A stretch of DNA of 64,000 nt from a virus. Taxonomy: Duplodnaviria > Heunggongvirae > Uroviricota > Caudoviricetes. Shown here piece after piece: positions 7,118 through 21,694 of the stretch (positions are counted from its first letter, which is position 1; each line of letters starts with the position of its first letter). The translations under genes were made by a program, and so were the position numbers. The notes under the pieces were generated by a model, which saw only the letters and a program-made list of their open reading frames with translations, ran no database searches and was not told the DNA's origin. The DNA lies in IMG/VR virus record IMGVR_UViG_3300027734_000050, positions 1-64,000 of that record; one strand, given 5' to 3'.

Positions 7118-7253
7118 GGTGGTCTTCTCGCCTGCTCCCTTTCACCCACACCGAGTGATACAGCAAAGGAGAAGGGTGAAAGGGGATTGAGCCGCAGGGA
7201 CCAAATGCCTGCGTGGGATTCGGTAACCCACATTTATTAGACAGTAAAACAAC

Positions 7254-8483
7254 ATGACCAACTTCTATCTAAGACAGTGGGATTATTTACATCACACCGT
7301 CCAACCATTTTATTGGACGGTGTTCAATCATGAGACTGATCAATCAACACGATTCAACTTCAAACATGACGCTATAGTTTACAGAAAAACTTTACCACAT
7401 GCAACATTGTATTTTCATTGGTACGAAGAACAGTTTTCTAAGCTAAATGTATCAATGGAACCTCCTGAGTCATTGGCTGAGTTATACAGACAGCGAGCAC
7501 AAGAATTACGAGATGCCTACAAATATCTTAGATTAAGTTTCAGTGGTGGTGCAGATAGCTTAACCGCGTTACACAGTTTTGTAGATAATAATATACATCT
7601 TGATGAGATTGTGGTTGTGGACTACTTTGATGGATCCAACTATGACGATCCAATGAAATCGTCTGGACGAGAAATTAAGTTACATGCACTGCCATATCTA
7701 AAACAAATCGCACATCTCATACCAAATACCAAGCTCACTGTGGTCAACACCACTGCCAAAGATGACAATGATATGTTTAATGATTTTTCGGATGACCCCG
7801 AGAAGCATCCAACTTTTGATACCTTGGAAGGGCAACTGCATTTTGGGGTAGAAACTTGGTCACTGGGCAAGTTCATGATGCAGACCCCTCGCGAAAGTTG
7901 TTGCGATATCCACGGTGGTAGCAAAGTCAAACTGTTCAAGAACCGAGATAAGTGGTATTTTTATTGGGTAGATGGTGCTATGTCTGATCTAAACATGTGT
8001 GCTGCCTATCCTGAAGATTTCTTCATCAGCCGAACCATACCCAACTTGTATCTCAAAACAGTTTACTTGTTGAAAAATTTTTACATATCTCAGAAGTTTG
8101 ATGATGTCACCATCAATGAGTTTCCAGATCATCCCAAGAATCACCCGGCCTTCAATGTAGGGCTAGGCAGGAATTTGGCACCTGCACTTGCCACATACAA
8201 GACGTATTTTTCATCGCACAACCCATTGGACTGGAAGAATCATTTTATATCAGGGTGGCATTCGACCTTGTTCTTCAAGAACGTCGTAAACACCCCCGAA
8301 GGAGACAAGTGGATAAAAAACTACAAGCAAAACATAACGTCTATCATCGCAACAGCCGGTGACGAGTGGAATGTGGATAAACTAGGCAACCCGGTACCGG
8401 CATTCGGGCGCAAAGGACACTTGAGCAAGTTCTATTGTCTCAATGATGGGCGAGCCTATGACTCAGTGGATGCTAAAAAATAA
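7254..8483 (+). CDS. PP-loop superfamily ATP pyrophosphatase (409 aa)
   Basis: LRLSFSGGADSLTALH is a SGGxDS PP-loop motif, as found in TilS, MnmA, QueC and NAD-synthetase. Confidence 0.55.
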   Translation: MTNFYLRQWDYLHHTVQPFYWTVFNHETDQSTRFNFKHDAIVYRKTLPHATLYFHWYEEQFSKLNVSMEPPESLAELYRQRAQELRDAYKYLRLSFSGGADSLTALHSFVDNNIHLDEIVVVDYFDGSNYDDPMKSSGREIKLHALPYLKQIAHLIPNTKLTVVNTTAKDDNDMFNDFSDDPEKHPTFDTLEGQLHFGVETWSLGKFMMQTPRESCCDIHGGSKVKLFKNRDKWYFYWVDGAMSDLNMCAAYPEDFFISRTIPNLYLKTVYLLKNFYISQKFDDVTINEFPDHPKNHPAFNVGLGRNLAPALATYKTYFSSHNPLDWKNHFISGWHSTLFFKNVVNTPEGDKWIKNYKQNITSIIATAGDEWNVDKLGNPVPAFGRKGHLSKFYCLNDGRAYDSVDAKK

Positions 8484-8956
8484 TTTGCCTTTTTGGCAAA
8501 AAATCGCAGAAAAAGTTGCGATCAATGGTTGACAAGAGATAAATAATCCTATACAATACATGCTATGAACCAGTCGATACATCATTTATCCCTCAAACCG
8601 CTGACACAGAGTCAGGGCGTCTGCCCCACCTTGTGGTTTGCGATTGAGATGAATTATGATCGTGCGACAGGGTCAGGGGTCCGAGGAGACCTAGTATAAC
8701 ATAGCGTATACTTAACTTCCAAAGGACCCCAGGACTAAACACCCTGGGGTTCGTCTTTTATAGTGTGGAGCAACGAGGGCTCACCCCGCACTTAAAACAT
8801 GGGGAAACGGGCGGCCTGTGGGATGAAACTCCTTTTGTGGAGTGAAAAATCACAGCGTATTAAAGCATATCGGTGGCGTCACAGATCCGGGTCGGGGTGG
8901 CAGCTAACACTCAATATGCTTTAATACACGCATTCCAAAGAGTGCGTAAATAATCA
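8484..8956 (+). other. 470-nt non-coding, highly structured region (candidate ncRNA / processing region)
   Basis: No ORF of 60 aa or more. Promoter TTGACA-17-TACAAT at 8528-8556. GC-rich hairpins include ccccagg...cctgggg at 8727-8749. Confidence 0.35.
8867..8927. repeat. 14-bp perfect inverted repeat (gtattaaagcatat / atatgctttaatac) around a 33-nt GC-rich loop
   Basis: Arms at 8867-8880 and 8914-8927. The aagcatat...atatgctt core also occurs in the tmRNA intervening-segment stem at 21403/21468. Confidence 0.6.
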
Positions 8957-9733
8957 ATGCCTGTATTCTTAGACTCAGTGATAGAGTTCTACATCACCAA
9001 TCAATGCAACCTGGCCTGCACCAACTGCAATAGGTTCAATGACCATGACTTTCGTGGACATTACTCATGGGAAGACTCAGCAGAGGCTGTTGAAGCATGG
9101 AGTAAACGCATCGATGCACCCATGCTCACCATCATTGGTGGAGAACCTAGCCTACATCCTGGATTGGAAACCTGGGTCTCAAATCTTCGTAGATTATGGC
9201 CCGACACTGAGATCATGATACAAAGCAACGGAACCAATCCAAAATTGGCTCGTGAACTTGATTTATGGACAAGATACCGCACAGGATGGGGTATAAGTGT
9301 ACACCAACCACAGATGAGGCACACATTGGAAAAACAATGGGATCAGATCACCCGAGGGTTTTTTGACAACATTGAATTCACTCCGGCTGCTGTGATTCCG
9401 CAAGGTGACGGGTTCACTGTACATCATAGTAATCCTGTAACAGCATTCAAGGCATGTACCATGCGGCACAGCCATACCATATTCCAAGGACGCTTGTATA
9501 AGTGTCCAGTGATGGCTGTATTGCCCGAGTTCCGCACTCAACATTCAGTTGAGATGGACTCAAGACAACAACAGTTGTTATCGCAGTATCAGCCTTTGAG
9601 TGCGGATTGTTTGGAACAACAGTTGATAGACTTTGTTGATACAAGACATCAACCGATCGATCAATGTGAATTTTGCCCTGGCGAATTTGATTTCCAGCCA
9701 GTGGTATTCCATAAAAGAAAAAAACTGCTCTGA
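8957..9733 (+). CDS. radical SAM protein (QueE/NrdG-like small rSAM)
   Basis: CNLACTNC is a CxxxCxxC motif at residues 17-24. IIGGEP motif also present. Confidence 0.65.
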   Translation: MPVFLDSVIEFYITNQCNLACTNCNRFNDHDFRGHYSWEDSAEAVEAWSKRIDAPMLTIIGGEPSLHPGLETWVSNLRRLWPDTEIMIQSNGTNPKLARELDLWTRYRTGWGISVHQPQMRHTLEKQWDQITRGFFDNIEFTPAAVIPQGDGFTVHHSNPVTAFKACTMRHSHTIFQGRLYKCPVMAVLPEFRTQHSVEMDSRQQQLLSQYQPLSADCLEQQLIDFVDTRHQPIDQCEFCPGEFDFQPVVFHKRKKLL

Positions 9734-9803
9734 TGGCGCAATTGGTAGACGCACTATCTTGAGGTGGTAGAAAGTGTGAGTTCGACTCTCACTCAGAGCA
9801 CCA
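9726..9803 (+). tRNA. tRNA, anticodon GAG (Leu-type anticodon but class I shape with a short variable loop)
   Basis: Acceptor GCTCTGA/TCAGAGC, discriminator A with CCA, T-loop GAGTTCGACTCTC and anticodon loop TTGAGGT. Confidence 0.6.
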
Positions 9804-9814
9804 AGAAATTATCG

Positions 9815-9893
9815 GCCCCGGTGGACAAATCTGGCAAAGTCGCTTCTCTCAAAAGGAAGAGTTCTGCGAGTTCAACTCTCGCCCGGGGTACCA
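9815..9893 (+). tRNA. tRNA, anticodon CAA (Leu-type anticodon, 3-bp D-stem, short variable loop)
   Basis: Acceptor GCCCCGG/CCGGGGT with ACCA end. T-arm GCGAGTTCAACTCTCGC. Anticodon stem CTTCT/GGAAG with loop CTCAAAA. Confidence 0.55.
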
Positions 9894-9900
9894 AATTATT

Positions 9901-9976
9901 GCAACTTTAGCTGATGTGGTCATAGCGCCGGTCTGAAGAGCCGGTGAACCAGGTTCGATCCCTGGAGGTTGCACCA
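9901..9976 (+). tRNA. tRNA-Phe (GAA)
   Basis: Acceptor GCAACTT/AGGTTGC. Anticodon loop CTGAAGA. T-loop GGTTCGATCC. CCA end. Confidence 0.75.
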
Positions 9977-9986
9977 TAAAACATGT

Positions 9987-10062
9987 TGGGGTGTCGCCTA
10001 GAGGCCTAAGGCACTGGTCTTTGAAATCAGTATCATGAGTTCGAATCTCATCTCCCCTGCCA
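9987..10062 (+). tRNA. tRNA-Gln (TTG)
   Basis: Gln-like TGGGGTG start. Anticodon stem CTGGT/ATCAG with loop CTTTGAA. T-arm ATGAGTTCGAATCTCAT. Ends GCCA. Two acceptor-stem mismatches. Confidence 0.55.
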
Positions 10063-10107
10063 TCTAACAAAGACCCGTCAACATGGCGGGTTATTAAAAA
10101 AGCAGTT

Positions 10108-10136
10108 GACCAGTATCGTGGTTGATGCTACAATAG
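10108..10136 (+). promoter_or_regulatory. sigma70-type promoter TTGACC-17-TACAAT
   Basis: ttgaccagtatcgtggttgatgctacaat lies upstream of tRNA-Glu. Confidence 0.5.
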
Positions 10137-10207
10137 AGACTAGTTAGAAAGAAGCACGGTGCATCGACGCTGTGCTGCAAGTTCGTTAAAAATTTCAGCA
10201 AGTATTT

Positions 10208-10282
10208 GCTCGGTTCGTCTATCGGTTAGGACGCTGCCCTTTCAAGGCGGAAAGACGAGTTCGATTCTCGTACCGAGTACCA
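10208..10282 (+). tRNA. tRNA-Glu (TTC)
   Basis: Acceptor GCTCGGT/ACCGAGT. Glu-like D-arm TCTATCGGTTAGGAC. Anticodon stem CTGCC/GGCGG with loop CTTTCAA. T-arm ACGAGTTCGATTCTCGT. CCA end. Confidence 0.8.
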
Positions 10283-10357
10283 TATTGAAGCACATTAAAA
10301 CACGCCCCTAGTAGCAGTAGCGAATCAAGGGTGGAAGGTTGAGTGTGCTTCAATATG
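10281..10357. repeat. 14-bp inverted repeat (catattgaagcaca / tgtgcttcaatatg) anchored on the CCA of tRNA-Glu, with a 49-nt loop
   Basis: Arms at 10281-10294 and 10344-10357. It joins the tRNA-Glu 3' end to the 5' end of the next tRNA-like element. Confidence 0.6.
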
Positions 10358-10422
10358 GTGATAGCTTAGTGGGAGAGTGCAGTCGTTGGCTGTGGGCACA
10401 GGTTCAAATCCTGTTCACTATT
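10355..10422 (+). pseudogene. degenerate tRNA-like element (acceptor and T-arm intact, no valid anticodon arm, no CCA)
   Basis: Acceptor ATGGTGA/TCACTAT. D-arm TAGCTTAGTGGGAGAGT. T-arm ACAGGTTCAAATCCTGT. Only 19 nt lie between the D-arm and T-arm, and these form a competing hairpin CTGTG/CACAG. Confidence 0.3.
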
Positions 10423-10434
10423 TCGTATTTTGCA

Positions 10435-10800
10435 AAAAGAAAACACTGTCATCTAGGACTTGTCGGGTGAATAAAACAGTTGGGTAAAAGTCCTTACGGC
10501 GAGTCGCTATATAAGAACACATTTCAGCGGGATAGACCGTGTTGGATAGTTTCTGTTTGGTACAGTATCCGAAGTGTGTTCCTATTTAGTAAAGAATCAA
10601 GTGGAAAGCAAGAGCCACAAAGTAAGCATCGCCGGGTCAGGAAATGTGTCCGGGACGTGTAGGCCGCGCAACCTATACAAACAACGATGGGGTAAGAGCC
10701 CTCATAACATTTTCGCCAAATTTAGGTCTCAAAGTGTTCATGGACGCACACAAGCCTGTCACGCTTGAAGAAGGGGATCGTTACCCCTTGGGACCGCCAA
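10435..10800 (+). other. ~365-nt non-coding spacer inside the tRNA array (possible ncRNA)
   Basis: Only short overlapping ORFs of 60-64 aa without RBS. Flanked by tRNA-like elements. Confidence 0.25.
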
Positions 10801-10806
10801 GTTTTT

Positions 10807-10944
10807 GCGCTGGATTGATATTGCGGTTGGAGTTGATCGCCCAATGGCAGACAGGTTTAATTCCTGTTAGGTGCACCAAGTTATGCAGTGATTGGAGAAG
10901 GCAGATGCCCCGTGCATCGCATACTAGTTGCCACAGAGGTTCGA
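10807..10944 (+). pseudogene. two degenerate tRNA-like elements, each ending ...GCACCAAGTT
   Basis: The elements at 10807-10878 and 10881-10944 each have a canonical T-arm (ACAGGTTTAATTCCTGT and AGAGGTTCGATTCCTTT) and a GCACCA 3' end. No convincing anticodon arm was found. Confidence 0.3.
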
Positions 10945-10969
10945 TTCCTTTGGCTGCACCAAGTTTTAT

Positions 10970-11048
10970 CTGTGTGTGAGAAAGTCCGGTCTAATCTACT
11001 CGCCTTGGAAGTGAGAAATCGTAGGTTCAAATCCTACCGCACAGACCA
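10970..11048 (+). tRNA. tRNA-like, anticodon TGG (Pro), non-canonical D-arm; possibly a pseudogene
   Basis: Acceptor CTGTGTG/CGCACAG. Anticodon stem CTCGC/GTGAG with loop CTTGGAA. T-arm GTAGGTTCAAATCCTAC. ACCA end. The 20-nt D region does not fold into a D-stem. Confidence 0.4.
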
Positions 11049-11259
11049 ATTTTTGAGAGTGTCAGCAAGAGAAAGTCACGCTGAAAAGCTTCTTCGAAGA
11101 GCTTGACAGTGTAACGCAACGGGGGGCGCGAATCCCCAGCAGCAATATAAGTGGACGTTGTGACAAGTATCCCAAGTGGCGTACCGAGACCTTGCCGGCC
11201 TTGTATAATAAGGTGAATGGTTCCGATAATATGGGCGGAACTACTCTCAAATTCAATCT

Positions 11260-11346
11260 GGAGACGTGTGCCGAGTGGCGAAGGCAGCTGACTGTAAATC
11301 AGTGACATAAGAAACACCGTAGGTTCGATCCCTACCGGCTCCACCA
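11260..11346 (+). tRNA. tRNA-Tyr (GTA), type II with long variable arm
   Basis: Acceptor GGAGACG/CGGCTCC. Anticodon stem GCTGA/TCAGT with loop CTGTAAA. Variable arm GACATAAGAAACACC. T-arm GTAGGTTCGATCCCTAC. CCA end. Confidence 0.75.
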
Positions 11347-11352
11347 TATTTC

Positions 11353-11427
11353 GGGGGATTAGTGATAATGGTAGCACATGTGCTTTGCAAGCATGAAGCA
11401 GGAGTTCGATTCTCCTATCCTCCACCA
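11353..11427 (+). tRNA. tRNA-Ala (TGC)
   Basis: Acceptor GGGGGAT/ATCCTCC has a G3:U70 pair. Anticodon loop TTTGCAA. T-arm AGGAGTTCGATTCTCCT. ACCA end. Confidence 0.75.
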
Positions 11428-12162
11428 TTACCGAAATGCACGTTGTCTGAATGCTTCACTGAATACGCCATCCACTCTCAACGAGTAGCAGGCTTGCGGT
11501 GCAGGATCTGACCCGTGATGATTATTGGTGTTGAACCAATTACAATTTCCTGATGAATAGATTTTTTGATCAGTTTCAACATCTAATAGATAAAATTTCT
11601 TCCGATCAGGAGCAAAGTCAATCCAGATGAATTCATCCGAAGCGGGGCGGCTATCATCTGCATAGTCGGTATGTATTGGACTATACCCGCCGGGATAGTT
11701 AATGAATAAAGTCGTGCGACCGTAGTCGCTAAAAATCTCTTGGCGATCAAGCCACTCATAGAAGAAGGCAAGTTGTATATCTTCTGGTAGCGCCACGCAT
11801 TCAGTGGCATGATGCTTGGTAGCGTAGTCTAATGCGTATCGACTGGTTATGGTAAATGTACATGCAGTAACATCTTTTTCAAATACAATGTAATTGGCAA
11901 ATTGATCGCATCTGATTAGATCAGCAACAACTTCTCGTAGGCTAGAGTCAGCGACCATGTCAGGGTTGTCTTCAAACTCATCTTGATAATCATGGGTGCC
12001 AAGACTACCATCTTTAAAAAGCGAACCGTAGAATTTGGTTGGCTTGAGCAGGTGATGATTTTTGGCAATAAATGCCGAGACATAAGGTTTGATTGCAAGG
12101 AGGCCGTTGAGGTCTATTAGATGGTCAAAATTTAAAAACGGTTGATTGTGTGCTAAGAACAT
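11428..12162 (-). CDS. cupin / 2OG-Fe(II)-oxygenase-like protein (aspartyl beta-hydroxylase-like)
   Basis: HTDYADD ... NWFNTNNHHG gives a possible His-x-Asp...His facial triad. It is the only minus-strand gene in the first half of the window. Confidence 0.35.
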   Translation of the reverse strand: MFLAHNQPFLNFDHLIDLNGLLAIKPYVSAFIAKNHHLLKPTKFYGSLFKDGSLGTHDYQDEFEDNPDMVADSSLREVVADLIRCDQFANYIVFEKDVTACTFTITSRYALDYATKHHATECVALPEDIQLAFFYEWLDRQEIFSDYGRTTLFINYPGGYSPIHTDYADDSRPASDEFIWIDFAPDRKKFYLLDVETDQKIYSSGNCNWFNTNNHHGSDPAPQACYSLRVDGVFSEAFRQRAFR

Positions 12163-12213
12163 AAAATATTTATTGCATGGTACTTTTTACTAAGTATTTT
12201 TAAGAGTTTATAT

Positions 12214-12292
12214 TCCGAGAAACCCGAGCTAGGTGCATGGGCGTGACTGTTAATCACTGGTTAGGTGGGTTCGAACCCCACACTCGGAGCCA
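12214..12292 (+). tRNA. tRNA-like, anticodon GTT (Asn), atypical D-arm
   Basis: Acceptor TCCGAGA/ACTCGGA with GCCA end. Anticodon stem GTGA/TCAC with loop CTGTTAA. T-arm GTGGGTTCGAACCCCAC. Confidence 0.5.
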
Positions 12293-12299
12293 AATTTTA

Positions 12300-12373
12300 G
12301 CCCTACTAGTACAATGGCAGTACACTGGTTTTGTAATCCTGTGATGGCAGTTCGATTCTGTCGTGGGGCACCA
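12300..12373 (+). tRNA. tRNA-Thr (TGT), weak anticodon stem
   Basis: Acceptor GCCCTAC/GTGGGGC. D-arm GTACAATGGCAGTAC. Anticodon loop TTTGTAA. T-arm GGCAGTTCGATTCTGTC. ACCA end. Confidence 0.6.
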
Positions 12374-12378
12374 CATAT

Positions 12379-13035
12379 ATGAAAAAAGCCGTGATCCTAG
12401 GCTGTAGCCATTCAGTTGGAGCAGAGATGCATCAAGAACCAGGATTGGTTTTTGACAGCTTCAATCAAGCCAACGACTATGAACAGACTCATTCTTATCC
12501 TGCTCAGATTGCACAGGTATTAGGATATGATCCAATCAATCTCAGCATATCAGGCGGCAGCAATGACGCCATGTTCAGACGGTTCACAGAACAAACTTTA
12601 ACACCCAACGACATAGTGATTGCTTGTTGGACAGGTGTGAATAGAAGTGAAATCTATGATAGCCAATGGATTGCAATGGCTCCGGGCGCAGTGCCAGATC
12701 AAGTCAATGCAGACTACTTTAAACAGTGGTTGTTGTATTCTGCCAACACTGAAGTAGGTATGTTGAATAAAACAAAAAACATCCTTGCACTCAATGCTCT
12801 GGCTCATGCACAAGGCATCCAAGTGATCAACATAGACAGTTTTTGGCCAGTGCCAGATGTTGCCTGGCCCAACTCAGTAGAGTGGGCTGTGAACATAGAT
12901 TTTATGGCATGGTGCCAACAACACAACTTTCCCCACACAGAGAAAGTTCATTTTTTCAAACCAGCACATGACTCGTTTGCCCAGCATGTGCTACAGAATA
13001 TTGCGGGTAGGGTGGCCACCACACCGGTCTCATAA
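12379..13035 (+). CDS. SGNH/GDSL-like hydrolase
   Basis: The N-terminal VILGCSHSVG is a GDS(L) block with a Ser nucleophile. ISGGSND is a block II-like motif. Confidence 0.45.
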   Translation: MKKAVILGCSHSVGAEMHQEPGLVFDSFNQANDYEQTHSYPAQIAQVLGYDPINLSISGGSNDAMFRRFTEQTLTPNDIVIACWTGVNRSEIYDSQWIAMAPGAVPDQVNADYFKQWLLYSANTEVGMLNKTKNILALNALAHAQGIQVINIDSFWPVPDVAWPNSVEWAVNIDFMAWCQQHNFPHTEKVHFFKPAHDSFAQHVLQNIAGRVATTPVS

Positions 13036-13075
13036 GCCAGGTGCATCGGCAGTTCGAATCTGTCACCCGCATCCA
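13002..13075 (+). tRNA. tRNA-like, anticodon CAT (Met/Ile2), small D-arm; overlaps the 3' end of the preceding CDS
   Basis: Acceptor TGCGGGT/ACCCGCA. Anticodon loop CTCATAA. T-arm GGCAGTTCGAATCTGTC. TCCA end. Confidence 0.4.
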
Positions 13076-13195
13076 AGTCAAGTCCATGCGTCACTCAAAC
13101 TGAATGAGTGTTTACCCGTCAGGGAGTCTCTGGACAGTTTTTCAAGTCCATACAGCCTCGATCTGATGGGGCCTCGTCACTGGACTGATTTCTTT

Positions 13196-13272
13196 ACCGC
13201 CTTGGCTCAACTGGATAGAGCACTGGATTACGAATCCGGGGGTTGGGAGTTCGAATCTCTCAGGTGGTACCA
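13196..13272 (+). tRNA. tRNA-Arg (ACG)
   Basis: Acceptor ACCGCCT/AGGTGGT. D-arm GCTCAACTGGATAGAGC. Anticodon stem CTGGA/TCCGG with loop TTACGAA. T-arm GGGAGTTCGAATCTCTC. ACCA end. Confidence 0.8.
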
Positions 13273-13277
13273 TTCAT

Positions 13278-13351
13278 GGCCCTTTAGTTAAAAGGTATAA
13301 CAGACGCTTGATAAGCGTCAGTCGGAGGATCGTTACCTCCCGGGGCTACCA
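13278..13351 (+). tRNA. tRNA-Ile (GAT) with non-canonical T-loop ATCGTTA
   Basis: Acceptor GGCCCTT/CGGGGCT. D-stem GTTA/TAAC. Anticodon stem GACGC/GCGTC with loop TTGATAA. T-stem GGAGG/CCTCC. ACCA end. Confidence 0.55.
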
Positions 13352-13356
13352 AACAG

Positions 13357-13385
13357 TTGACAACATTGTCAAAATGTTGTATAAT
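13357..13385 (+). promoter_or_regulatory. perfect-consensus sigma70 promoter TTGACA-17-TATAAT
   Basis: ttgacaacattgtcaaaatgttgtataat. Confidence 0.55.
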
Positions 13386-13490
13386 AGATTTTTTACACAG
13401 GAGCACAGCATGAAACATGCTAAACCATAGTGTCAATCCAGATCCCATGTAGGTCCGGGTTGGCACGTGAAAGACAATTTTACATACCAA

Positions 13491-13565
13491 CCCTCTAAGA
13501 TGTTAAGGCAGCATGCCGGACTCTTAATCCGTGACGTCCGAGTTCAAATCTCGGTGGAGGGACCA
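13491..13565 (+). tRNA. tRNA-Lys (CTT)
   Basis: Acceptor CCCTCTA/TGGAGGG. Anticodon loop CTCTTAA. T-arm CCGAGTTCAAATCTCGG. ACCA end. Confidence 0.65.
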
Positions 13566-13569
13566 ATAT

Positions 13570-13645
13570 GGGGCTATAGTTAAGCGGTTATAACATCACC
13601 CTTTTAAGGTGTAAGACCTCGGTTCGAATCCGAGTGGCCCTACCA
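13570..13645 (+). tRNA. tRNA-Lys (TTT)
   Basis: Acceptor GGGGCTA/TGGCCCT. D-stem GTTA/TAAC. Anticodon loop CTTTTAA. T-arm CTCGGTTCGAATCCGAG. ACCA end. Confidence 0.7.
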
Positions 13646-13796
13646 TTTAGTGAAACACTTTGCCCAAGCGAGAAACACATCTGTGGAGTCGCTCTCTGCA
13701 CGAGGATGTGAAAAGTCGGAATTATCCTTGCCCCCGCTCTTGGGGATGCGAATTAGGAAAAGGCAAAGGGAAGAGACAGAGTGTTTCACTAAATGG
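13643..13796. repeat. 17-bp inverted repeat (ccatttagtgaaacact / agtgtttcactaaatgg) anchored on the CCA of tRNA-Lys, with a ~120-nt GC-rich loop
   Basis: Arms at 13643-13659 and 13780-13796. A third copy of agtgaaaca lies at 13913. Confidence 0.6.
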
Positions 13797-14016
13797 TAAA
13801 ATTGAAGTTGACCTAGATCTATCCTGTGATGGATATGAGCAAGCGTGAAATATACGACATGTTGCCGGTGAGTCTGCGAGACTTGTTCTGGTCATGCCGA
13901 GTGCCTCAATATAGTGAAACAACAATCTCATCATGTGGAAGATGTAATACTTGCGTGACCTTGAAAGAACAAGGCATTCGCAAATAGAAAGCAAGGCATA
14001 ATTCGTACTATATAGT

Positions 14017-15727: not shown

Positions 15728-15730
15728 CAT

Positions 15731-15813
15731 GCCCTGGTGACTTATGCAAATTGGCACAGCTACTGGTCTTAGAAGCCAGGTTTTTGCGGGTTCGAGTCCC
15801 GCCTAGGGCACCA
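15731..15813 (+). tRNA. tRNA, 83 nt, anticodon TAG (Leu) with oversized D region; atypical
   Basis: Acceptor GCCCTGG/CTAGGGC. Anticodon stem CTGGT/GCCAG with loop CTTAGAA. T-arm GCGGGTTCGAGTCCCGC. ACCA end. Confidence 0.5.
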
Positions 15814-16645: not shown

Positions 16646-16730
16646 CTTGACAGGTATTGCGAATCCTGCTATAATTGTGGCATAGATAGAAAACATCTAT
16701 CCGTGCTCTTTAAAAATTTCGTAAGTTTTT

Positions 16731-16807: not shown

Positions 16808-16885
16808 GTAGCGGTGGCGGAGAGGTCCAACGCAAGAGTCTGCAAAACTCTAACACCGTGAGTTCAAATCTCACCCGCTACTCCA
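16808..16885 (+). tRNA. tRNA-Cys (GCA)
   Basis: Perfect acceptor GTAGCGG/CCGCTAC. Discriminator U. Anticodon stem AGAGT/ACTCT with loop CTGCAAA. T-arm GTGAGTTCAAATCTCAC. CCA end. Confidence 0.7.
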
Positions 16886-17011
16886 TATATGAACACATTC
16901 ACGGTGGGGATACCAGCAACTGGACGCAGGGGCTATCCGAAAGAGCAGGCATGCTTACCGAAAGCTGGAGACGAGTGTGTTCTTATATGGACAGTTGGTC
17001 CAACAAAATAA

Positions 17012-17478: not shown

Positions 17479-17961
17479 ATGAAAAAAATGGACCTAGAAA
17501 AAGTCAAAGCATTTATCCATGCACAAAGTCCTGAAACTTCTGTTTACCTGGGCTGCGATAGTGAAAGAGTTAAAGTAGATGGCGTATGGCATGCAGACTA
17601 TGCTCTAGCAGTGGTGGTGCATATCGATAGTTGCCATGGTTGCAAGATCTTTGGTGAAGTACACCGTGAACGCGACTGGGATCAACGCAGTGATAAACCT
17701 AGCATGCGACTGATGAACGAAGTTTACAAGGTGAGTGAACTGTTCCAAAAGATGGCAGATGTGTTAGAAGATCGACTGGTTGAAGTCCACTTGGACATTA
17801 ACCCTGATCAGATGCACAAGAGTTCTGTTGTGGTTAACCAAGCAATTGGATATATAAAGGGAACTTGTAATGTGATTCCAATGGTCAAGCCAAGAGCGTT
17901 TGCTGCTAGTTATGCAGCAGACAGACTAGATTGGGTGCTGAGCAATCGCAAAGCAGCCTAA
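17479..17961 (+). CDS. hypothetical protein (160 aa) embedded in the tRNA array
   Basis: ORF with RBS AAAGAAAGTAAATC upstream. No recognisable motif. Confidence 0.5.
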   Translation: MKKMDLEKVKAFIHAQSPETSVYLGCDSERVKVDGVWHADYALAVVVHIDSCHGCKIFGEVHRERDWDQRSDKPSMRLMNEVYKVSELFQKMADVLEDRLVEVHLDINPDQMHKSSVVVNQAIGYIKGTCNVIPMVKPRAFAASYAADRLDWVLSNRKAA

Positions 17962-21065: not shown

Positions 21066-21299
21066 ACAATAAGGAGACCATATGTTCGTAGGATTGATGG
21101 GGGTTGACAATGATGGTAAAACCATGTACACTCCCAGTGGTAACAAGATATTTTTCACACTGCCCTGGGGACTAGCGTGGCGTGTGCAAGAGATACAACA
21201 TTGGATCGCTCGGAAGACTTGGCGATAAATAAGAGTTAGCACTATAGAAGATTAGATAATATCAAATCTCAGGGCTGGTACACCACATGCAACCTCTCC

Positions 21300-21401
21300 G
21301 AGAAGTGGCATGGTTAGACCGTATAGTGTTGAAAGTTATTGCTGTATGAAGCAAAGAGAAAAGTGTTCTGGACGCGGGTTCGACTCCCGCCAGGTCCACC
21401 A
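21300..21401 (+). ncRNA. ssrA: tmRNA acceptor piece (T-arm, 3' acceptor strand and CCA) of a circularly permuted two-piece ssrA gene; 5' boundary uncertain
   Basis: ggacgcgggttcgactcccgccaggtccacca is almost identical to the 3' end of E. coli tmRNA (GGACGCGGGTTCAACTCCCGCCAGCTCCACCA). It lies upstream of the matching 5' acceptor strand, not downstream. Confidence 0.7.
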
Positions 21402-21486
21402 CAAGCATATTGCGGTGTGTATTCGAAAGACCGATCACCTTGGCGTTTCGATGTTTTCGCAAGTGATTTTACAATATGCTTTTGAT
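21402..21486 (+). other. tmRNA intervening segment closed by the inverted repeat aagcatattg / caatatgctt
   Basis: Arms at 21403-21412 and about 21468-21477 bring the CCA end and the GGGCCTG 5' end together. This arrangement is typical of permuted ssrA precursors. Confidence 0.55.
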
Positions 21487-21694
21487 GGGCCTGACATTGG
21501 TTTCGACAGGGCAAAGAGTAACAGAGTGGACAGCTCGGGAAAGCAGAACCCGTAGGGTTGGGGAGACTCGGCCGTAGAAGCAAAAAACGTAAATGCAAAC
21601 GACGAACAGTTCGCTTTAGCAGCCTAAACACTGCTTAGGGTAGGAAATACCTCGTAACAGAAATCACCAAACCCGCTTCGGCGGGTTTTTTTTT
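21487..21694 (+). ncRNA. ssrA: tmRNA coding piece: 5' acceptor strand GGGCCTG, tag ORF gca aac gac gaa cag ttc gct tta gca gcc taa (ANDEQFALAA), terminator
   Basis: gggcctgacattggtttcgacaggg parallels E. coli GGGGCTGATTCTGGATTCGACGGG. Acceptor pairing 1-7/66-72 retains G3:U70 and has a compensatory C4:G69. The tag reading frame is at 21595-21627. A rho-independent terminator lies at 21669-21694. Confidence 0.7.
21669..21694 (+). terminator. rho-independent terminator (aaacccgc-ttcg-gcgggttt followed by a T9 run)
   Basis: Perfect 8-bp GC-rich stem, tetraloop and T-run. It is followed immediately by promoter TTGACA-17-TATACT at 21697-21725. Confidence 0.8.

What the first reader, a model, noticed from the sequence alone, without database searches (positions are those of the whole stretch)
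8867..13796. Family of long perfect inverted repeats anchored on tRNA CCA ends and sharing the aagcatat/atatgctt core with the tmRNA processing stem
Three stems of 14-17 bp enclose GC-rich loops of 33-120 nt: 8867-8880/8914-8927, 10281-10294/10344-10357 and 13643-13659/13780-13796. The latter two start exactly at the CCA of a tRNA (Glu, Lys-TTT). The first shares (a)agcatat...atatgct(t) with the tmRNA intervening-segment stem (aagcatattg...caatatgctt, 21403/21468). They look like dedicated RNA-processing structures that excise spacers from a long stable-RNA precursor. They could be RNase III-like or phage-endonuclease sites.
Basis: seen in the sequence. Interest (0 to 1): 0.55.

Follow-up and report, generated by a model that had tools for sequence, protein, structure and literature searches.

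The report
CCA-locking spacer hairpins in phage tRNA arrays
An uncultured lake phage places long RNA hairpins with swappable interiors right on the 3' CCA ends of certain tRNAs and inside its two-piece tmRNA gene; across related phages the hairpins sit almost only after tRNA-Lys(UUU), tRNA-Glu(UUC) and tRNA-Gln(UUG), a pattern I found no report of.

Summary
The three stems are real, apart from one 10-nt coordinate slip. They belong to a family of at least six hairpins in the window's stable-RNA region, including the tmRNA intervening sequence (IVS).

In related phage contigs the stems persist at the same sites through compensatory changes. Arm mismatches are mostly G·U on the tRNA strand, so selection acts on the RNA. 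The interiors are replaced wholesale between close relatives. One element, and one conserved 60-nt cargo RNA, occur both in tmRNA IVSs and in tRNA 3' hairpins.

New here: in 80 related tRNA arrays, CCA-anchored hairpins follow 64% of tRNA-Lys(UUU), 57% of tRNA-Glu(UUC) and 21% of tRNA-Gln(UUG). They follow about 1% of all other tRNAs.

Best reading: IVS-like spacer hairpins sequester the CCA end in the precursor and must be cut in the duplex, probably by an RNase III-type enzyme. Cleavage is inferred, not shown. The tRNA specificity is unexplained. I rate this a new variant of a known kind, of moderately high interest.

The parts
8857..8927 (+). Hairpin s1. Arms are 8857-8870 and 8914-8927, with a 43-nt interior. 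It lies in the 5' leader of the radical-SAM ORF (8957-9733), 300 nt after promoter 8529-8557.
   Evidence: The stem is conserved in 10 distinct orthologues with 7 of 15 pairs compensated. At least 7 unrelated interiors occupy this site in relatives.
10278..10360 (+). Hairpin s2. Arms are 10278-10296 and 10342-10360. The 5' arm starts at U72 of tRNA-Glu(UUC) (10208-10282). The 3' arm overlaps the first 6 nt of a CCA-less tRNA-like gene (10355-10422).
   Evidence: L017 and L028 carry a compensatory U-A to G-C change.
10507..10589 (+). Imperfect family member X. Arms are 10507-10525 and 10571-10589. In relative L013 the same element sits directly on the CCA of tRNA-Glu.
13641..13798 (+). Hairpin s3. 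Arms are 13641-13662 and 13777-13798, with a 114-nt interior. It starts at U72 of tRNA-Lys(UUU) (13570-13645) and separates the tRNAs from the downstream ORFs.
   Evidence: Hairpins at the same position but with different arm sequences occur in L002, L003, L010, L017, L022, L105 and L116.
16882..16991 (+). Arms are 16882-16900 and 16973-16991, with a 1-nt bulge. It starts at the discriminator of tRNA-Cys (16808-16885). Its interior shares AACTGGACGCAGG...CTGGAGA with a cargo RNA found in tmRNA IVSs.
21402..21486 (+). Intervening sequence of the permuted tmRNA gene (21285-21691). Arms are 21402-21412 and 21472-21481. They continue the acceptor helix through the CCA.
10208..10282 (+). tRNA-Glu(UUC), whose CCA end is sequestered by s2.
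13570..13645 (+). tRNA-Lys(UUU), whose CCA end is sequestered by s3.
8529..8557 (+). One of five near-consensus sigma-70 promoters. The others are 10106-10134, 13357-13385, 16647-16675 and 21104-21132. Each lies 144-300 nt upstream of one hairpin.
   Evidence: In relatives, 48% of hairpin tRNAs have such a promoter within 300 nt, against 12% of other tRNAs.

Best explanation
These are IVS-like spacer hairpins in polycistronic stable-RNA precursors.

An A/U-rich arm begins at nucleotide 71-73 of a tRNA, or at the CCA of the tmRNA acceptor piece. It pairs with an inverted copy 40-350 nt downstream. The 3' CCA end is therefore buried in a 14-24-bp duplex that stacks on the acceptor stem.

The duplex must be cut by a double-strand-specific endonuclease before exonucleases can trim back to the CCA and before RNase P can see the RCCA end. 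The most likely enzyme is the host's RNase III. The enclosed segment is discarded or released as cargo. In the tmRNA gene the same module is the intervening sequence whose removal yields the two-piece tmRNA.

Because the arms are a repeated sequence family, they also act as recombination junctions. Interiors and neighbouring tRNA modules are exchanged through them.

Shown here: the RNA-level pairing under selection, the position on CCA ends, the kinship with tmRNA IVS stems, the cargo swapping and the tRNA specificity.

Inferred: the cleavage, the enzyme and the order of events.
For: - Folds and chance controls.
- Orthologous stems are kept through compensatory changes: (98.7% paired, 7 of 15 pairs with double changes, 0 of 500 shuffles reach it).
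- The mismatch bias fits + strand RNA: 46 G·U against 11-13 A·C in 39 tRNA-array stems (p = 2e-5), and 155 against 38 in 87 tmRNA IVS stems. A U·G wobble recurs five nucleotides after the AAR motif.
- Every one of 87 distinct phage tmRNA IVSs is closed by a covarying stem that runs on from the acceptor helix.
- The same element occurs in a tmRNA IVS (L049) and at site 1 (L018).
- The same 60-nt cargo occurs in tmRNA IVSs and in tRNA 3' hairpins.
- Interiors are replaced between close relatives while the flanks stay about 95% identical. Interiors are only weakly structured, with mean z = -0.54.
- Homology breakpoints fall on arm boundaries.
- There is no T-run after the stems, so they are not terminators.
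- Precedent: 23S rRNA IVSs have terminal inverted repeats forming about 28-bp stems, are sporadic, sometimes carry an ORF, and are excised by RNase III (PMC4990558). Permuted tmRNA precursors are cleaved into two pieces (PMC11915505).
Against: - No end-mapping or cleavage data exist.
- The window encodes no RNase III signature, so a host enzyme has to be assumed.
- s1 is only 14 bp (about 18 bp with flanking pairs), short for RNase III.
- A generic processing site does not explain why the hairpins follow Lys(UUU), Glu(UUC) and Gln(UUG) almost exclusively.
- It also does not explain the conserved sequence motif with a fixed U·G wobble, which suggests sequence-specific recognition.
- At least one cargo is a conserved structured RNA, so interiors are not always junk.
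Confidence: 0.55

Rival explanations
1. The hairpin is a dedicated lock on U34 tRNAs. It keeps tRNA-Lys(UUU), Glu(UUC) and Gln(UUG) as inert 'pro-tRNAs'. Alternatively, it carries fast-evolving decoy or regulatory cargo next to them. From established knowledge, these three tRNAs bear xm5s2U34 and are classical targets of anticodon nucleases such as PrrC, PARIS AriB and zymocin-type toxins. On this reading the element is an anti-defence or tRNA-supply device rather than a plain processing site.
For: - Hairpins follow 21 of 33 Lys(UUU), 17 of 30 Glu(UUC) and 6 of 29 Gln(UUG), against 12 of 894 other tRNAs (odds ratio 67).
- The bias holds within promoter-proximal tRNAs: 16 of 18 against 3 of 75.
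- The three isoacceptors account for 23 unrelated arm-sequence clusters, against 12 for all other isoacceptors.
- The arms reach into base pairs 1-72 and 2-71 and bury the CCA.
- Interiors turn over as fast as arms-race loci do.
- Phage tRNAs are known counter-measures to tRNA-cleaving defences (PMC10264068; titles listed).
Against: - The counts are not phylogenetically independent.
- The same hairpin type occurs in the tmRNA IVS, in a 5' UTR (s1) and after Cys, Leu and Arg tRNAs.
- I saw no anticodon-loop mimic of the cognate tRNA in the s2 and s3 interiors (read by eye), and no motif is shared across 49 distinct interiors.
- Anticodon nucleases recognise the anticodon arm, which the hairpin does not touch.
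Confidence: 0.2
2. The elements are selfish palindromic DNA or recombination modules, comparable to MITEs or to the PeSL cassettes of T4-type phages. On this reading the arms exist because they mediate insertion, deletion and shuffling of tRNA modules, and the RNA hairpin is a by-product.
For: - Homology breakpoints between the window and relatives fall on arm boundaries.
- L013 carries a deletion or fusion between the 5' arms of s2 and X.
- L010 has the same 105-nt interior in two different stems.
- Elements occur in tandem with near-identical arms in L002 and L005.
Against: - The strand-specific excess of G·U over A·C and the compensatory changes at fixed sites point to selection on the + strand RNA.
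- No direct target-site duplications flank the elements (read directly from the sequences).
- Interiors are mostly unique, not multi-copy.
- No transposase is associated.
- The position relative to the CCA is exact.
Confidence: 0.1
3. The hairpins are promoter-proximal cis-acting RNA elements that make RNA polymerase resistant to Rho or to termination on long untranslated tRNA transcripts (like put or boxB). Alternatively, they stabilise the transcript.
For: - All five strong hairpins in the window lie 144-300 nt downstream of near-consensus promoters.
- In relatives, 48% of hairpin tRNAs are promoter-proximal against 12% of other tRNAs.
Against: - Isoacceptor identity predicts the hairpin far better than promoter proximity.
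- 28 of 74 Lys/Glu/Gln tRNAs that are not first in an operon still carry a hairpin.
- The tmRNA IVS has to be removed in any case.
- There is no similarity to known antitermination RNAs in Rfam.
Confidence: 0.08

Closest known systems
Intervening sequence (IVS) of permuted, two-piece tmRNA genes (Rfam RF01850 and RF04321)
   Same: The window's 21402-21486 is such an IVS. The tRNA-linked hairpins share its architecture: a helix running on from the acceptor stem through the CCA. They also share its arm motif (AAG-CAYA-U·G) and even its cargo.
   Different: After tRNAs the 3' arm is not followed by a 5' acceptor strand, so nothing is permuted. The tRNA upstream is complete. Pairing at ACCA/UGGU is perfect, whereas the tmRNA IVS has a fixed C74·A mismatch.
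Intervening sequences of bacterial 23S rRNA, excised by RNase III (Salmonella, Leptospira, Coxiella; PMC4990558)
   Same: Both have terminal inverted repeats that form a long stem and an interior that is variable, sporadic and sometimes ORF-bearing. In both, the host RNA is left in pieces or trimmed. Some phage tmRNA IVSs also hold ORFs.
   Different: The location is at tRNA or tmRNA 3' ends and in a 5' UTR, not in rRNA helices. RNase III cleavage is untested here. There is a strong bias to three tRNA isoacceptors.
RNase III processing stalks of rRNA operons and phage T7 early-mRNA RNase III sites
   Same: Long duplexes formed by sequences flanking or separating functional RNAs in a polycistronic precursor.
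   Different: Here the duplex encloses the spacer rather than the functional RNA. It carries a conserved sequence motif with a fixed U·G wobble.
PeSL cassettes of T4-type phages, and bacterial MITEs such as Correia elements (from my own knowledge)
   Same: Repeated short structured motifs that mark module junctions and mediate shuffling. Correia hairpins in transcripts are cut by RNase III.
   Different: There are no target-site duplications, and no promoter sits inside the hairpins. The interiors are unique rather than multi-copy. The register with the CCA ends is exact.

Membership tests
Permuted tmRNA intervening sequence | Lies between the CCA of the acceptor piece and the 5' end of the coding piece of a gene that matches the permuted tmRNA models | tested here: met
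   For 21402-21486 only. RF01850 and RF04321 each score 120 bits, and ARAGORN calls a permuted tmRNA.
Permuted tmRNA intervening sequence | The 3' arm is followed by the 5' acceptor strand complementary to the upstream 3' acceptor strand | tested here: not met
   For s1, s2, X, s3 and s4. The sequence after the 3' arms does not complement the upstream acceptor strand.
Permuted tmRNA intervening sequence | The segment is absent from the mature RNA | not testable with these tools
   This needs RNA end mapping.
RNase III-excised IVS or processing stalk | Terminal inverted repeats forming a duplex of about two helical turns | tested here: met
   s2 is 19 bp, s3 is 22 bp, s4 is 18 bp plus a bulge, and the tmRNA stem is 22 bp with mismatches. 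s1 is only 14 bp, or 18 bp with its flanks.
RNase III-excised IVS or processing stalk | Sporadic or variable interior with a conserved stem among close relatives | tested here: met
RNase III-excised IVS or processing stalk | Cleavage of both strands of the stem by RNase III | not testable with these tools
   No RNase III gene signature is present in the window, so a host enzyme has to be assumed.
MITE or palindromic transposable element | Direct target-site duplication flanking the terminal inverted repeats | tested here: not met
   The flanks read show no direct repeats, for example CACAGC|s1|ACGCAT.
MITE or palindromic transposable element | Many copies sharing the same interior | tested here: not met
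   Interiors cluster only with their orthologues. The exceptions are L010 (two copies) and the 60-nt cargo family.
Intrinsic terminator | G+C-rich short hairpin followed by a U-run | tested here: not met
   None of the stems is called except a weak sub-hairpin inside s1. The arms are A/U-rich and no T-run follows.
Any Rfam family, including self-cleaving ribozymes and group I introns | Match to a covariance model | tested here: not met
   Nothing matched inside the elements apart from chance-level hits. Only s1, s2, X, s3 and s4 were searched at the permissive E-value threshold. The window's own tmRNA IVS interior was covered only at gathering threshold.

The most novel reading that the evidence does not exclude
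The hairpins are a dedicated device of these phages for the three U34 (xm5s2U-class) tRNAs. A CCA-sequestering lock would make maturation of tRNA-Lys(UUU), Glu(UUC) and Gln(UUG) conditional on a specific duplex cleavage. It might be recognised through the conserved AAR-CAYA-U·G motif by a sequence-specific nuclease. It could carry rapidly exchanged cargo RNAs or mini-ORFs. Its role would be to counter tRNA-targeting defences or to time tRNA supply.
Probability: 0.15. Interest if true: 0.85.

Novelty: new variant of a known kind. Interest (0 to 1): 0.66.

Why it matters
Phage tRNA arrays are usually read as simple strings of tRNA genes. This work shows a conserved, structured layer between them.

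- A family of CCA-burying hairpins is shared with the intervening sequence of phage two-piece tmRNA genes. Their interiors behave as exchangeable cassettes: small RNAs, and in tmRNA genes even a thioredoxin ORF.
- The near-exclusive attachment to tRNA-Lys(UUU), Glu(UUC) and Gln(UUG) gives a concrete, testable link. It connects tRNA precursor architecture with the current question of why phages carry tRNAs at all: codon supply, or evasion of anticodon nucleases.
- The result also offers a processing model for two-piece tmRNA, whose IVS removal is poorly defined.

Tried and rejected
- Known RNA families: Rfam searches at gathering and permissive thresholds found nothing in the elements.
- Terminators: no T-runs follow the stems.
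- Invertible segments: every minus-strand match between interiors was traced to loci stored in opposite orientation.
- Interiors copied from elsewhere in the phage: BLAST found only orthologous copies, apart from L010 and one 28-nt match.
- Interiors as strongly structured RNAs: mean fold z is only -0.54.
- Shared motifs or cognate anticodon-loop decoys in interiors: no shared k-mer across 49 distinct interiors, and none seen by eye in s2 or s3.
- Phage-encoded RNase III: no signature in six frames of the window.
- PF04308 RNase H-like ORF (17479-17958) as the dedicated nuclease: it is always inside tRNA arrays. However, the cultured phages DLP6 and KVP40 have it without any CCA-anchored hairpins, so the coupling is not tight.
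- Covariance model of the 60-nt cargo: it does not recover the window's own elements beyond their arms.
- Bacterial origin: one scan of 185,579 species genomes for the consensus hairpin gave a single 1.5-kb contig in a metagenome-assembled genome.
- Cultured close relatives: none in 50,697 phage records.


Full report
**Context.** The window carries a + strand array of 37 tRNA genes, most of them between 9727 and 21065. A permuted (two-piece) tmRNA gene follows at 21285-21691. No cultured phage is closely related. Relatives came from IMG/VR and JGI lake metagenomes, including contigs of 192-348 kb. The source is therefore a large uncultured freshwater phage.

**Observation.** The three inverted repeats are real.
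- The first 5' arm is 8857-8870, not 8867-8880.
- With G·U pairs, stems 2 and 3 are 19 and 22 bp long.
- Both start at U72/A73 of tRNA-Glu(UUC) and tRNA-Lys(UUU), so ACCA pairs with UGGU.
- The folds have z-scores of -4.5 to -5.4.
- A scan of all 64 kb finds only seven strong local inverted repeats. Five lie in the stable-RNA region: the three reported stems, a fourth on the CCA of tRNA-Cys (16882-16991), and the tmRNA IVS stem.
- Comparison with relatives exposes a sixth, imperfect member at 10507-10589.

**RNA-level selection.**
- At the site upstream of the radical-SAM ORF, ten distinct orthologues keep 98.7% of stem cells paired. Seven of 15 pairs carry changes on both sides, and no shuffle or slid register approaches this.
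- After tRNA-Glu, L017 and L028 changed U-A to G-C.
- In 39 non-redundant stems the mismatches are 46 G·U against 11-13 A·C. That bias fits an RNA read from the tRNA strand.
- A U·G wobble recurs five nucleotides after an AAR triplet (…RAR-CAYA-U·G…).

**Interiors.**
- The flanks and arms of orthologous elements are about 95% identical, yet the enclosed 28-190 nt are unrelated between close relatives. The rSAM site alone has at least seven different interiors.
- Interiors average 0.49 GC and fold only slightly better than shuffles.
- L010 has one 105-nt interior in two different stems.
- Homology blocks between the window and relatives end exactly at arm boundaries (10359/10360, 10506-10509, 13797, 16885).
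- L013 fuses the 5' arm of s2 to element X.
- The arms therefore behave as junctions for cassette exchange.

**Link with the tmRNA.**
- A pattern scan returned more than 119 viral contigs with permuted tmRNA genes.
- In all 87 distinct IVSs, a stem continues the acceptor helix: ACCA:UGAU with a fixed C·A mismatch, a covarying N-N' pair, AAG:CUU, then 6-8 covarying pairs. The interior ranges from 28 to 273 nt and is hypervariable.
- Mismatches are 155 G·U against 38 A·C. The wobble sits at the same distance from AAG in 44% of cases.
- The L049 IVS aligns end to end (about 80% identity) with the element at the rSAM site of L018, including the terminal UUUGAU.
- A conserved 60-nt cargo (AACUGGACGCAGG…CUGGAGA) occurs in 55 viral contigs. 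It has 24 predicted pairs, 7 of them compensated, and no Rfam match. It sits either in tmRNA IVSs or in hairpins on the CCA of Leu, Gln, Arg and Glu tRNAs.

**tRNA specificity (new).**
- Using the conserved PF04308 ORF (17479-17958) as a handle, I fetched 80 related tRNA arrays holding 986 non-redundant tRNAs.
- I scored CCA-anchored hairpins as 17 bp or more, with the 5' arm starting at nucleotides 71-75 of the tRNA.
- They follow 21 of 33 tRNA-Lys(UUU), 17 of 30 tRNA-Glu(UUC) and 6 of 29 tRNA-Gln(UUG). They follow 12 of 894 other tRNAs (odds ratio 67).
- The arm sequences fall into 6, 11 and 6 unrelated clusters for these three isoacceptors. All other isoacceptors together give 12 clusters.
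- Hairpin tRNAs are also promoter-proximal: 48% against 12% have a strong promoter within 300 nt.
- Isoacceptor identity dominates. Among tRNAs first after a promoter, 16 of 18 against 3 of 75 carry a hairpin. Among the rest, 28 of 74 against 9 of 819 do.
- These counts are not phylogenetically independent.
- From established knowledge, these three tRNAs carry xm5s2U34 and are classical targets of anticodon nucleases. PrrC acting on tRNA-Lys is cited in PMC10264068.
- The cultured phages DLP6, KVP40, Marzo and XacN1 lack such hairpins.
- A consensus scan of 185,579 bacterial and archaeal species genomes gave a single hit.

**Mechanism.**
- Shown: a selected RNA duplex buries nucleotides 71/72-76 of specific stable RNAs and encloses exchangeable sequence.
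- Inferred: a stable duplex abutting the CCA should block 3' exonucleases and hide the RCCA end from RNase P. Maturation would then need an endonucleolytic cut in the duplex. RNase III is the obvious candidate. The precedents are the 23S rRNA IVSs (PMC4990558) and the two-piece tmRNA precursor (PMC11915505).
- The enzyme is unproven, and none is encoded in the window.
- The conserved motif and the tRNA bias suggest added specificity that this model does not explain.

**Rivals.**
- A U34-tRNA lock or anti-defence device would account for the specificity. It does not account for the tmRNA and 5' UTR copies.
- A purely DNA-level mobile or recombination module is contradicted by the G·U bias and the compensatory changes.
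- A promoter-proximal antitermination or stabiliser element is a weaker predictor than isoacceptor identity.
- Terminators are excluded.

**Verdict.** This is a new variant of a known kind (IVS or processing-stalk hairpins), with an unexplained and striking isoacceptor specificity. Interest is moderately high.

Noticed in passing
L104 and about 16 other tmRNA loci (for example L137, L087, L127, L060, L068, L134): In about 17 of 87 distinct phage tmRNA intervening sequences, an ORF starts just after a Shine-Dalgarno-like 5' arm (UAAGGAG directly after CCACCA). It ends exactly at the conserved UGA that precedes the coding piece. L104 encodes an 84-aa thioredoxin (Pfam PF00085, 75 bits). Several others encode 22-25-aa hydrophobic peptides.
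   Followed up: partly
55 viral contigs, for example L119 7439-7498; the diverged copy in the window is at 16918-16971: A conserved 60-nt structured RNA (AACUGGACGCAGG…CUGGAGA) has invariant ends and a covarying hairpin. It has no Rfam match. It is carried as cargo both in tmRNA IVSs and in tRNA 3' hairpins.
   Followed up: partly
window 8560-8856: A leader of about 300 nt follows promoter 8529-8557 and is conserved in nine relatives. Of 70 predicted pairs, 23 are compensated. It contains a terminator-like hairpin at about 8726-8762 and has no Rfam match. It may be a riboswitch or attenuator, or an sRNA, upstream of the radical-SAM gene.
   Followed up: partly
window 17479-17958: This ORF belongs to the uncharacterised RNase H1-like family PF04308 (DUF458/YkuK). 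It has more than 227 close relatives (65-99% identity) in viral contigs. All 80 fetched sit inside tRNA arrays. It is also next to tRNA-Lys(UUU) in Stenotrophomonas phage DLP6 and near the KVP40 tRNA array.
   Followed up: partly
window 10355-10422: A 68-nt tRNA-like gene (Rfam 46.9 bits; ARAGORN calls Asn-GTT with C33) has no encoded CCA. Its first 6 nt lie within the 3' arm of hairpin s2. It is absent at this site in relatives L011, L012 and L028.
   Followed up: no
window 13441-13456 with 13560-13575; L003 10100-10239: The leader of tRNA-Lys(CUU) is complementary to the junction formed by the tRNA-Lys(CUU) 3' end, the spacer and the tRNA-Lys(UUU) 5' end. The match is a perfect 16 bp in L003 and imperfect in the window. 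It is conserved in L002, L005, L010 and L022.
   Followed up: partly
L002 7184-7417, L003 7183-7414, L005 7163-7399: An interior of about 190 nt, with conserved ends, lies inside a CACTATATGTAAACA stem immediately upstream of tRNA-Glu. It is a candidate novel structured RNA. It is absent from the window.
   Followed up: no
L005 11358-11821: A GOLLD RNA (Rfam RF02032, 200.8 bits) with a tRNA-Asn embedded in it lies in the tRNA array of a relative. The window has none.
   Followed up: no
window 7236-8526: The 409-aa ORF 7254-8483 has an SGGxDS PP-loop-like motif and no Pfam hit. It is an insertion that is absent from relatives L011, L012, L013, L017 and L028.
   Followed up: no
window 15729-15813 and about 10800-10965: Several tRNA-like sequences are not called by ARAGORN or Rfam. 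Examples are a Leu(UAG)-like gene at 15729-15813 (96% identical to L010 574-658) and two T-arm-plus-CCA segments between tRNA-Asp and tRNA-Pro.
   Followed up: no
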